Assembly: GCA_965228855.1 (NCBI GenBank)
Contig: CBDDIJ010000002.1
Span: 1,152,001 to 1,216,000 of the forward strand
Direction: 5' to 3'
From: Candidatus Obscuribacterales bacterium
GTDB taxonomy: Bacteria; Cyanobacteriota; Vampirovibrionia; Obscuribacterales; Obscuribacteraceae
Length of the DNA stretch: 64,000 nucleotides
Shown here: positions 27,001-30,000 of the stretch, piece after piece
Layout of the letters: each line of letters opens with the position of its first letter
Position numbering within the stretch: position 1 is the stretch's first letter
Made by a program: the position numbers

Positions 27001-30000
27001 AATAGTTTGCCTTCTGGCGACCAGACCGGCTGAAATACTGACTCTTCCTTGTTTCCAGCAACGACCTTGTCTTCTTTGATGGCGCCGGAACCATCAAATT
27101 GAATAAGGTGTAAGTCGGTTCCATCCCAGGGCATGTTAGGATGACGCCAGGCGATATAACTGAGGTACTGGGCATCAGGACTCAGTCTAGGGTATGAATA
27201 GAAGTCATATCCGGATGCTATTGTTGTCGGCTCGCCATGTTTGAACTCGTTAGTTCCAACTGCGGTTATGTCGATGGAAACTAGCTTGTTTTCCGGCTCC
27301 TTGCCACCTTTCGAGTGATCTTCACAGACGCAAATCAGGCGGTTGCGTTTTTCATCAATCACCATATCGGCATATCTAAGTTTGTTTTCCCTGGTAATTG
27401 CAACGGGCTCTGAACCAGGCTTTTGAAAGTAGATCAGTTGGTCTTTGAAGTTGACGAAGAAGATGTTTCCCTCGTGCAATGTGAATGAACCACCGCCGTA
27501 CTCGTGCACCAGAGTTCTCACGTTAAACGTCTTCGGCAGCGCATCTTCGAGTCTACCGTCTCTGTGTCGCACTACCAGCGCTGTTCGTCCGGCTTCCGAG
27601 GGACGCCCCTCCAGGTAATAGAGATCGTCGCCGTCGAATGCGACTTCGCCCAGGCGGAGCGAGTTGGACGCGATTTGCTCCGCATTGATTGGAGATTTCC
27701 AGGAGCCGTATGGCGCGGTGGTTTTCGACATGTTGTTCTCCTTGAAAGAGGGACTCGAACGATTGGAGTTTTCGTCTGAAATCAAGCGCTGCTTGTTTTG
27801 ATACTGGGCGTCAAATGCGACCACCGAATATGGCCGCGCGACGACGCCGAGCAGAAGCACCGAGGCGCTTAGCAGCACGTTTGCTGAGGTTCGAAACGGA
27901 TGATTTGGAATGCGCACCAGTTGTCCGAACGAAATCTACTGCTCAAACTCCAGCCCATTCTGGCGAATGGTAAAGTTGACCACGGCTTGATCAAGCGTGA
28001 GCTTACCAGACTTGAGAAGCTCGTGCATGATCATGGCGGAGTCGATGAGTGCTCGGTCATCGGGTCTGGACTGGCGCAACAAGAAACCCAGCAGCTCGGT
28101 ATTTTTAAAGCTCAGTTTTATCGCCTCGCGCAAGTAGTCCTTCGAGACATTTCCTTCCTTGCGGGCATGTTTCATCACCGCGGCTATCAGCTCGGGATTG
28201 CCCATGACCATCTGGACTATGTTTTTCATCGAGTCCTTGTTGAGATATCCGCTCAGCCGCAGGAAGTCGCAGAAGGAAACTTGTTTTTGAAACTCGGACG
28301 GTTTCAGTCCAGCCTTCTCAAGACCCTCTTCGGCTGTCAGTCCTGATTTGTCGATATGCTTCAGAGCGCTCGATGCGCGGTAGACGCTGACGCCGCCGCT
28401 CCAGACCATCTCTTGCAATCTAAGCGCTGCGGTGAGCAATTCTTGCGAAACCCAGCCCATCTCGATTAAGACTTCACCCATCATTTTGTCGTTGGCTTTT
28501 GCCATCTCGACAGCGGACTGCACATCGGCTGCGCTGAGCAAATGCGATGCGATCAGGAGTTCGCCAATGCGAACCCGCTTGTCGTCTTTGTCGCCATCGC
28601 GTCCTTCAACGGGGATGTAGAGTTTCTCTTTGCGAAGTTGTTCGATGGCTAGTGAACGATCGATGCGTCCGAATCTCACATCGCGCTGAAGATTGAGGGC
28701 CAGGTCGAGCGACGGCTCCGACAGTTTACTCAGTAAAACCAGCACTCTGCCGAGCGGTAGACCGCTTCCGTCACTGGCTTTCAGGGCGAGGTCGACCTGC
28801 AATGGATTAACGTGCTCAGCGGACAGTAACAGCTCGCCGAGGCGAGTACCGCGTGTCGCATAGGCATCGACACCCAGCACTATGAGCGCGTCGGAAAGAG
28901 TCCAGCGTTTGCGATGGACGACACCCATCGCTTCCCGGGCGGCTTCCGCGTCCAGTAAGCCGTCTTTGATCATCGACTGGGCTTCGATAGAGGCGCGAAC
29001 AACTTCATTTGTGCAGAAGTCGAGCATGACCAGACATTTGCCGAGGGGCAGTCCGGTGTGCTTCGACAGTACAAGGCCCCTCTTGATGTCCTGGTCGGAG
29101 ACTACACCGAAATAGGTCAAGAGAGTTCCAAGTTTCAGATCTTCTGGCTCAGCCGCCAAATTCTTCGTACCTGTTTCTTAACTCGCGCTTGGAGCACTGC
29201 TTGGCAATGCGCCATGAGAATGCAGACAATCGGATATTAGCAAGTTTTGCGACCGATCGGTTGACACAATCTTTGCATAGATCGACTTATCAGCTTAATT
29301 GCATGGTAAGAATGTCAGATATGTGCCAAAATCTGTGGTTGCAATGGGGTTGAAGTGATGTCCCTGGAAGGCAGCAAGACCGTCTACATCAAATATTTCG
29401 CGCTCCTCAGAGATGAGCGGGGGTTGGCGTCGGAAAATATTTCGACCGAAGCGGCGACGCTTGCGGATCTTTACAACGAAATTCGAAGCCGGCACGACTT
29501 GTCACTTCCGGTCGAACGCATGTCGGTTGCCGTTAATGACGACTTCGCCGAGTGGGACAACAGGGTCAACGACAGAGACGTGATTGTCTTCGTGCCGCCG
29601 GTCGCAGGTGGATAGCCAATGTTCTATTTGATGGAAACCGAAATCGCTGAATCGCCGCTCAGAGCCGCCGTCGAGGACGAGCGCGCCGGGGCAATTTGCA
29701 CTTTTGATGGACGTGTGCGAAACCATAACGATGGTAAGGCGGTGAGCAAGCTCTCTTACGAGGCGTATGCCGAGTTGGCGGAGAAGGAAGGAAACGTTGT
29801 CATCGCTGAGGCGCTGGAGAAGTTCAACATTATTCGCGCTGCTGCTGCCCACAGGACGGGCGATCTGAAGATCGGCGACGTGGCCGTTTTCGTCGCCGTG
29901 TCAGCGGCGCACCGCGAGGACGCGTTTAAAGCTTGTCGCTACATCATTGATGAGATCAAACTGCGCCTGCCTATCTGGAAGAAGGAAACATACGTCGACG

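What a model noticed while it worked through the whole genome (the two positions that open the first line are those of the whole stretch)
27939..29162. Twenty-six stand-alone proteins built of tandem MshEN-like modules: a candidate main class of c-di-GMP receptors
A family of 26 paralogues (373-718 aa, e.g. g00988) without any Pfam row consists only of four or more repeats of a ~45-residue helical hairpin whose consensus (LGELLxxAGLxSxxDLxxALxxQ) and predicted fold match the c-di-GMP-binding MshEN/GSPII-B module of the pilus ATPases MshE and PilF. I read them as soluble, multivalent c-di-GMP receptors or adaptors; with 39 GGDEF proteins but one PilZ protein they would be the main read-out of c-di-GMP in this lineage. 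A receptor class made of MshEN repeats alone and expanded to dozens of copies would be new.
Evidence so far: Second largest family among proteins without Pfam: 26 members. Alignment A4 of 19 members, 31% mean column identity. Pfam at E<0.05: only weak DUF4388. AlphaFold2 on A4: pLDDT 82, all-helical, four repeat units. Foldseek PDB: no global hit at E<=0.001, but local matches of probability 1.00 and 0.99 to the MshE N-domain with c-di-GMP (5htl_B, 58 columns, rmsd 1.9, 33% identity) and PilF GSPII-B with c-di-GMP (8pfa_A, 61 columns, rmsd 2.5). Counts: GGDEF 39, EAL 4, HD_5 5, PilZ 1, Pfam MshEN 2.
(Added by a program. Inside this text positions count along the whole contig: contig position 1,152,001 is position 1 of the stretch shown here. 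"Call 12" and the like, gene names such as g00115 and contig names such as C1 are that model's own, and its searches are not shown. The text may have been shortened before it was handed on; [...] marks where a part breaks off. The agent that wrote the report below was given it as the finding of a first reader that could run no searches.)

Follow-up and report, generated by a model that had tools for sequence, protein, structure and literature searches.

The report
Four-module c-di-GMP adaptor protein family
An uncultured relative of cyanobacteria has 27 related proteins built from up to four copies of a known sensor module for the messenger c-di-GMP; three copies likely still bind it and the fourth is predicted to dock a partner protein, which would make them a new multi-site version of a known receptor rather than a new class.

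Summary
The genome's closest relatives are Obscuribacterales. It holds 27 paralogues of four ~98-residue units, never more: a 53-residue MshEN_N motif plus a two-helix spacer. NCBIfam NF053729 already recognises 26 of 27. Units 1-3 keep the glycines, leucine triads and second Gln needed for c-di-GMP binding but have lost Gln32 and Arg38; unit 4 is mostly degenerate. Binding is likely, not shown. New here: one paralogue lies directly behind a PATAN-plus-dead-GGDEF gene in 50 of 50 orthologous loci, and the two are predicted to bind, mainly through unit 4 (score 0.76, best control 0.08; mark reached by 116/157 solved and 2/215 mismatched pairs). 'Main read-out' is not supported: only 12 of 43 GGDEF proteins have an intact active site, and 22 of 31 degenerate ones keep a receptor-type RxxD site. 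The family was found in 25/25 genomes of the order and 0/96 others of the class. Stand-alone double MshEN_N is published, and this scan noted a triple form elsewhere. Verdict: new variant of a known kind.

The parts
27936..29159 (-). Gene for the 407-aa four-unit MshEN_N protein (the finding)
   Evidence: orthologues at 52-99% identity
28977..29135 (-). Unit 1 MshEN_N motif, residues 9-61: K9, G11, G40, Q61 and six hydrophobic positions kept; Q32 is Ser, R38 is Pro
28686..28844 (-). Unit 2 MshEN_N motif, residues 106-158: R106, G108, G137, Q158 and six Leu kept; Q32 position Ser, R38 position Pro
28413..28571 (-). Unit 3 MshEN_N motif, residues 197-249: R197, G199, G228, Q249 kept; Q32 position Ala, R38 position Met
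27939..28277 (-). Unit 4, residues 295-407: degenerate (first Gly and both Gln lost), 32-residue helical insertion, last spacer helix missing; inferred protein-docking unit
34387..35625 (+). Second paralogue in the window, 412 aa; units 1-2 have lost the first Gly, units 3-4 keep the binding pattern
   Evidence: NF053729 73.2 bits

Best explanation
These are proteins of four MshEN_N-based units that likely act as soluble multi-site c-di-GMP adaptors: units 1-3 likely each hold one c-di-GMP, and the degenerate fourth unit is predicted to be a docking surface for a partner, in one member a PATAN-plus-dead-GGDEF protein encoded by the gene next to it. SHOWN: unit structure and number; which motif residues are kept or lost; the gene pair; the range of the family; fusion of unit-4-like modules to kinases. 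PREDICTED: the fold and the complex. INFERRED: binding at roughly 0.1-10 micromolar per site (second Gln kept, first lost); ligand occupancy changing partner binding; and a downstream link to type IV pili, because PATAN domains bind the PilB1 N-terminal region in Synechocystis. For the window gene itself no partner is identified.
For: Motif census over 81 units (1-3 of 27 proteins): G11 67, G40 70, Q61 61, R/K9 55; 47 have both Gly, all six hydrophobics and at least one Gln; unit 4 meets this in 3 of 27. In 67 homologues the ligand-contact columns are more conserved than the helical core (entropy 1.00/0.36/1.10 against 1.75/2.02/1.67 bits), and in 13 orthologue rows of the window protein G11, G40 and Q61 are invariant in all three units. 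The missing residues are tolerated in measured binders: Q32A lowers affinity 9-fold, whereas G11L abolishes and G40I costs 72-fold (Wang 2016 Suppl. Table 1); PA14_29490 starts its first motif with Pro and binds at 0.48 uM; NfrB and Bd2402 lack the first Gln in the published alignment and bind; PilF GSPII-B has Leu at the R38 position, binds at 6 nM, and L196R weakens it (PMC11731258). The isolated MshEN_N binds without the C-subdomain. Gene pair: 50 of 50 orthologous loci, gap -4 to +77 nt; 14 of 14 from the reverse search, with the downstream neighbour the same in only 5; the partner's RxxD residues are invariant in 43 rows. Complex: score 0.76, best of 3 controls 0.08; the mark was reached by 116 of 157 solved and 2 of 215 mismatched pairs (roughly applicable with my alignments); runs agree in >=84% of contacts; partner pLDDT >=82; the closest contacts join the unit-4 spacer (I377, Y381, F396) to the dead GGDEF domain. 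Five proteins carry a C-terminal unit that scores best with the unit-4 profile: three Ser/Thr kinases and two others. Six of 27 family genes lie within 5 kb of a DUF4388 gene against 3.1% of other long genes (p=0.00025; kinase control 1.7%).
Against: No binding was measured. Gln32 is present in 2 of 81 units and Arg/Lys38 in 0 of 81; a strict 24-residue consensus is met by 1 of 27 members. I saw no measured binder that lacks both residues together. PilF GSPII-A stays unable to bind even with a restored consensus because neighbouring helices block it (PMC12002112); the packed four-unit fold could do the same, and I could not inspect coordinates. The predicted interface is only slightly more conserved than chance (p about 0.10 and 0.08) and involves the GGDEF part, not PATAN. 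A second candidate pair was not conserved (0 of 20 distant loci). The window protein belongs to a subfamily lacking the last helix used in that interface, and its neighbours (S9 peptidase, molybdenum-cofactor operon) are kept only in orthologues of 54% identity or more (3 of 10 loci). No family gene lies within 5 kb of an intact cyclase gene. The DUF4388 proximity was noticed after the fact and tested at four distances. Homologue sets were collected by similarity, which favours motif conservation.
Confidence: 0.55

Rival explanations
1. Ligand-blind scaffolds: helical alpha-clip repeats derived from MshEN_N that only bind proteins, with the conserved Gly/Leu/Gln positions serving folding or protein contacts.
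For: Family-wide loss of Q32 and R38; the PilF GSPII-A precedent; the predicted partner touches residues 132-147, next to the unit-2 pocket; copy number is unrelated to GGDEF number after correction; the spacer is itself a degenerate copy of the motif (hhalign probability 94%).
Against: Known non-binders lose G11, G40 and Q61 (XpsE); here these stay more conserved than the core and the turn glycines in units 1-3, and are lost in unit 4, which keeps the fold.
Confidence: 0.22
2. c-di-GMP sinks or buffers: they bind several molecules but have no specific output, and shape local messenger levels.
For: 21 of 27 have no other domain; genes are scattered among unrelated neighbours; weaker sites would suit buffering.
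Against: Paralogues average 25% identity while orthologues stay 52-99% alike, which suggests separate jobs; one is strictly linked to a partner gene; 35 of 59 long representatives carry TPR domains.
Confidence: 0.13
3. Receptors for a related nucleotide (3'3'-cGAMP or linear pGpG); the unequal changes in the two half-sites reflect an asymmetric ligand.
For: The first half keeps Arg and loses Gln; the second loses Arg and keeps Gln. VcMshEN binds cGAMP weakly.
Against: Both Gly backbone sites that read guanine O6/N7 are kept. Eleven of 12 intact cyclases keep the Asp after the GHxxG stretch and one has Glu; that cGAMP-making GGDEF enzymes have Ser/Thr there is recalled, not from a call.
Confidence: 0.07

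Closest known systems
MshEN_N subdomain of Vibrio cholerae MshE (PDB 5HTL; Wang et al. 2016, PMC5013675; NCBIfam NF053729)
   Same: 53-residue double motif, four-helix bundle, both Gly, Leu triads, second Gln; HMM above cut-off in 26 of 27.
   Different: No MshEN_C subdomain or ATPase; four units with a ~45-residue helical spacer; Q32 and R38 replaced throughout; unit 4 degenerate.
Thermus thermophilus PilF GSPII-A/B/C (PMC11731258, PMC12002112)
   Same: Tandem units, some binding and one not; GSPII-B also has Lys at motif start, a hydrophobic residue at the R38 position and Arg after the second Gly.
   Different: PilF units are full GSPII domains fused to an ATPase; its binding unit GSPII-B keeps both Gln.
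Stand-alone (MshEN_N)2 proteins of cyanobacteria (cce_1044, Sll0547) and the 22 MshEN proteins of Myxococcus xanthus
   Same: Stand-alone repeats and large per-genome numbers are on record.
   Different: Two units with canonical Gln; no four-unit protein with this spacer among 300 other genomes of the phylum (only partial matches, at most 6 candidates scored per genome). The Myxococcus set is of mixed architectures, not one paralogous family.
NfrB-DgcJ local signalling pair of E. coli (PMC8669469) and PATAN-PilB1 interaction of Synechocystis (bioRxiv 10.1101/2021.06.11.447907)
   Same: An MshEN protein binds a GGDEF protein directly; PATAN binds the PilB1 N-terminal region, and PATAN and GspE_N domains co-occur in proteins.
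   Different: DgcJ is an active cyclase and NfrB an enzyme. Here the GGDEF partner lacks the active-site motif and keeps RxxD, the MshEN protein has no enzyme domain, and the predicted contact is through unit 4 and not through PATAN.

Membership tests
MshEN_N c-di-GMP-binding motif (NF053729) | Score above the curated cut-off of 38 bits | tested here: met
   Window protein 99.3 bits; 26 of 27 members pass
MshEN_N c-di-GMP-binding motif (NF053729) | Two 24-residue motifs, 5-residue spacer, four-helix bundle | tested here: met
   No indels in units 1-3 of 24 of 27 members; helices in the model; 5htl_B Z 9.0, rmsd 2.0, 60 aligned
MshEN_N c-di-GMP-binding motif (NF053729) | G11 and G40 plus the six hydrophobic triad residues | tested here: met
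   All three of units 1-3 in the window protein; G11 67, G40 70 of 81 units; unit 4 mostly not
Canonical MshEN consensus (Wang 2016) | Arg at the start and Gln at the end of both motifs | tested here: not met
   Q32 in 2 of 81 units, R/K38 in 0 of 81; Q61 61 and R/K9 55 of 81. Filed as a variant, not as canonical.
MshEN_N c-di-GMP-binding motif (NF053729) | Measured c-di-GMP binding; pocket not blocked by neighbouring helices | not testable with these tools
Full MshEN/GSPII domain (Pfam PF05157) | Alpha/beta MshEN_C subdomain after the motif | tested here: not met
   No PF05157 hit in the 11 family members scanned against Pfam; model has no strands
Cyanobacterial stand-alone (MshEN_N)2 | Two directly adjacent motifs with canonical Gln | tested here: not met
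   Four units at 98-residue spacing, compared with the published alignment
Degenerate-GGDEF c-di-GMP receptors (the partner gene, outside the window) | Active-site motif lost, RxxD site kept | tested here: met
   ESTEY in place of GGDEF, RPLD at the I-site; R and D invariant in 43 rows; binding itself untested

The most novel reading that the evidence does not exclude
Obscuribacterales run c-di-GMP signalling through a combinatorial set of receptor-receptor pairs: four-unit MshEN proteins count up to three messenger molecules and use a portable fourth unit to dock onto a parallel family of PATAN-plus-dead-GGDEF proteins, kinases and TPR proteins, so that 12 cyclases feed dozens of specific, ligand-gated complexes aimed at the pilus motor. 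The two families expand together (rho 0.92 over 19 genera; 0.64 after removing genome size and kinase number).
Probability: 0.3. Interest if true: 0.78.

Novelty: new variant of a known kind. Interest (0 to 1): 0.6.

Why it matters
Bacteria often have far more c-di-GMP enzymes than known receptors, and nothing was found in print on c-di-GMP in this uncultured order. A fixed four-unit receptor could give a steep, multi-site response. An MshEN-derived unit reused to dock a dead GGDEF domain would be a new kind of contact between two receptor families. All parts are soluble and can be tested in E. coli, including whether an MshEN site binds without Gln32 and Arg38, which bears on predictions for thousands of MshEN proteins.

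Tried and rejected
Foldseek against PDB gave no hit at E<=0.001 for the 407-aa model. No c-di-GMP-I riboswitch was found, but no control genome rang either, so this is uninformative. ComFB: 0 matches in this 95%-complete genome. Closeness to intact cyclase genes: none within 5 kb, 1 of 27 within 10 kb. Closeness to Ser/Thr kinase genes: 8 of 27 within two genes against 10% (p=0.0035), but a 12-gene TPR control gave 25%, so I rejected it as general clustering. A second gene pair (C5:1236161 with the TPR fusion C5:1240182) had no family gene on the same stretch in 20 of 20 distant loci, 4 of them cut short by contig ends. I expected PATAN to be the contact; the model put the GGDEF part there. 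The window gene's neighbourhood gave no functional lead. Promoter and terminator scans were at chance level. The paralogue tree is a quick one with long branches and was used only to see subfamilies. The partner's N-terminal domain had no Pfam or Atlas hit.

Full report
OBSERVATION. The window holds a 407-aa ORF at 27936-29159 on the minus strand and a second paralogue at 34387-35625. The seven related loci returned from named genomes are Candidatus Obscuribacterales or Melainabacteria. An iterated profile over all 20,630 ORFs of the genome gave 43 hits, 27 of them at E<1e-70. The 21 members of 373-449 aa average 25% identity. The other six add TPR repeats (2), a histidine kinase (1) or extensions without a Pfam match (3). 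Pfam is silent for the window protein, but NCBIfam NF053729 ('cyclic di-GMP-binding domain, MshE-related') passes 26 of 27 members; Wang et al. note that the Pfam model misses the first three helices.

ANATOMY. The unit is about 98 residues: the 53-residue MshEN_N motif and a spacer of two more helices, which aligns to the motif as a degenerate copy (probability 94%). There are four units in 22 of 27 members and 125 of 143 database representatives, three in the rest, never more. The model is all-helical (pLDDT 87, pTM 0.74) and its best matches are 5htl_B, 6f8l_G and 8pdk_A. In MshE numbering, over the 81 units 1-3: G11 67, G40 70, Q61 61, R/K9 55, Q32 2, R/K38 0 (Pro in 55). Forty-seven have both Gly, six hydrophobics and a Gln; unit 4 does in 3 of 27; 25 of 27 proteins have at least one such unit. 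The window protein has three. In 67 homologues the ligand-contact columns are more conserved than the core; in the orthologue group of the operon member this holds for units 1-2 and not unit 3.

IS BINDING PLAUSIBLE? From Wang 2016 (main text parts 1-3 of 7, supplement parts 1-4 of 5): G11L abolishes binding, G40I costs 72-fold, Leu changes 10-38-fold, Q32A 9-fold, and the isolated N-subdomain binds at 0.35 uM. From passages of PMC11731258: PilF GSPII-B has Leu at the R38 position, binds at 6 nM, and single Gln-to-Glu changes leave 0.46-0.95 uM. From passages of PMC8669469: the NfrB MshEN domain binds at 1 uM. Against this, passages of PMC12002112 show a domain that stays blind even with a restored consensus, and I saw no measured binder lacking both Q32 and R38. 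I put binding by at least one unit at about 0.7.

CONTEXT. The genome has 43 GGDEF proteins, 12 with an intact active-site motif (about six more are near misses), 4 EAL, 5 HD_5, 1 PilZ and no ComFB match. Twenty-two of the 31 degenerate GGDEF proteins keep RxxD, so the four-unit family is one of two large candidate receptor groups and 'main read-out' cannot be claimed. Family genes are not near intact cyclases but 6 of 27 lie within 5 kb of one of 20 DUF4388 (PATAN) genes, against 3.1% of 300+-aa genes and 1.7% of kinases (noticed after the fact). One link is strict. The paralogue at C5:1349582 follows a PATAN + degenerate GGDEF gene in 14 of 14 loci found from its own side and in 50 of 50 found from the partner's side, the 30 best matches plus 20 that I picked from lower rows for diversity; together 56 genomes from both families of the order. 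The pair is not universal: 14 of 25 genomes had a match to this paralogue at E<=1e-55. A second candidate pair failed in 20 of 20 distant loci.

COMPLEX. With 43-row alignments of both proteins the pair scored 0.76 against a best control of 0.08; the mark was reached by 116 of 157 solved and 2 of 215 mismatched pairs, counts that hold only roughly for my alignments; runs agreed in at least 84% of contacts and partner pLDDT was at least 82. The tightest contacts join the unit-4 spacer to a helix and the last strand of the dead GGDEF domain, with further contacts to loops of units 2 and 3. Y381, F396 and the partner's F369, N314 and aromatic 311 (numbered in the 380-residue piece) are nearly fixed in this pair and vary in paralogues, but the interface as a whole is only slightly more conserved than chance (p about 0.1). 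The 27 PDB sequences matching the partner are all GGDEF proteins by title; I did not check each entry for a similar complex. Five other proteins, three of them kinases, end in a unit that scores best with the unit-4 profile, which fits a portable docking module. The window protein's subfamily lacks the last helix of that surface, so the partner result does not transfer to it.

RANGE. The family was found in 27 of 27 other genomes of the order and 0 of 13 outside, and in 25 of 25 against 0 of 96 in a class sample, at 1-29 matches per genome. In 300 other genomes of the phylum 33 gave partial matches and none a full-length one, with at most 6 candidates scored each. The profile finds 759 representatives at E<=1e-30; the four best Atlas clusters shown are mostly Melainabacteria. 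Of 59 long representatives scanned (59 of the 65 over 550 aa), 35 carry TPR repeats, 23 nothing, 1 a DUF4388 match. Two genomes of a sister family have 18-21 strong GGDEF matches and no member. Copy number follows PATAN number (rho 0.92, 19 genera; 0.64 after size and kinases) and not GGDEF number (-0.01 after the same correction); kin are not independent.

MECHANISM. Most likely: multi-site c-di-GMP adaptors whose fourth unit docks a partner (0.55). Rivals: ligand-blind scaffold (0.22), buffer (0.13), other nucleotide (0.07). The link to pili is inference: the PATAN domain binds the N-terminal region of PilB1 in Synechocystis (bioRxiv 2021.06.11.447907, passages and Discussion; it cites the 'alpha-clip' repeat, whose source paper I did not see).

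NOVELTY. The domain, stand-alone double repeats, four-fold repeats on an ATPase and 22 MshEN genes in one genome are in Wang 2016. I found no description of this family or of the gene pair in nine searches (listings only, apart from passages of PMC12943098, PMC11656802 and PMC12448109); 'Obscuribacterales' with 'c-di-GMP' gave 0 papers. The library lacks most subscription papers, and bioRxiv supplements were not seen. The fixed four-unit build, the family-wide motif change, the expansion to about 27 copies and the predicted contact with a dead GGDEF domain make it a new variant of a known kind. Interest 0.6.

Noticed in passing
G000 C5:1350790-1352829 (-), locus L092:1501-3537: Gene for an N-terminal domain + PATAN (DUF4388) + degenerate GGDEF protein overlapping the start of a family gene; 13 of the 20 DUF4388 genes also have a Pfam GGDEF match.
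   Followed up: yes
L092:3193-3489 (-) and 18 other genes of G000: An unnamed ~85-residue N-terminal domain shared by 19 proteins (PATAN-GGDEF proteins, two kinases, two proteins with MshEN units). Model pLDDT 93; best match Bacillus YkuJ 2ffg_B, Z 8.1, rmsd 2.3, 75 aligned, next 5.7. Function unknown.
   Followed up: partly
G000 C3:202166-203842, C3:200389-202074, C3:1515592-1516995 (L035, L038, L039): Three Ser/Thr kinases end in a single unit most like unit 4.
   Followed up: partly
G000 C2:381842-383488 (L032), with C2:383746-385341: Three units fused to a histidine kinase, behind a P-II gene and a NarL-type regulator, followed by another family member with a hydrophobic C-terminal stretch.
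   Followed up: no
G000 C2:1889263, C2:1276106, C3:1384423, C3:1315588, C3:1436740 (L041, L043, L044, L040, L036): Small proteins with one or two MshEN_N motifs, several nearer the canonical consensus, one fused to DnaJ and one to LRV/HEAT repeats; possibly tighter receptors than the four-unit family.
   Followed up: partly
G000 C3:1386903-1390586 (L042) and C2:2297360-2299507 (L047): Two PilB-like genes. The first reads MshEN, about 900 unannotated residues, then only the first ~110 positions of the ATPase model before the frame ends; the second lacks the second Gly of its motif.
   Followed up: no
G000 whole genome: 178 Ser/Thr kinase genes among 5919 called genes, and at least seven stand-alone ~230-260-aa degenerate GGDEF proteins, most with RxxD.
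   Followed up: partly
window 18662-21588 and 29355-34044: Read by eye from the translations: kynureninase and kynurenine monooxygenase genes; a molybdenum-cofactor operon (moaD, moaE, moaA, moaC/mog, moeA) between the two paralogues.
   Followed up: no
G000 C5:792954-803498: A 3514-aa protein with two GGDEF-like matches, one reading GGDEY.
   Followed up: no
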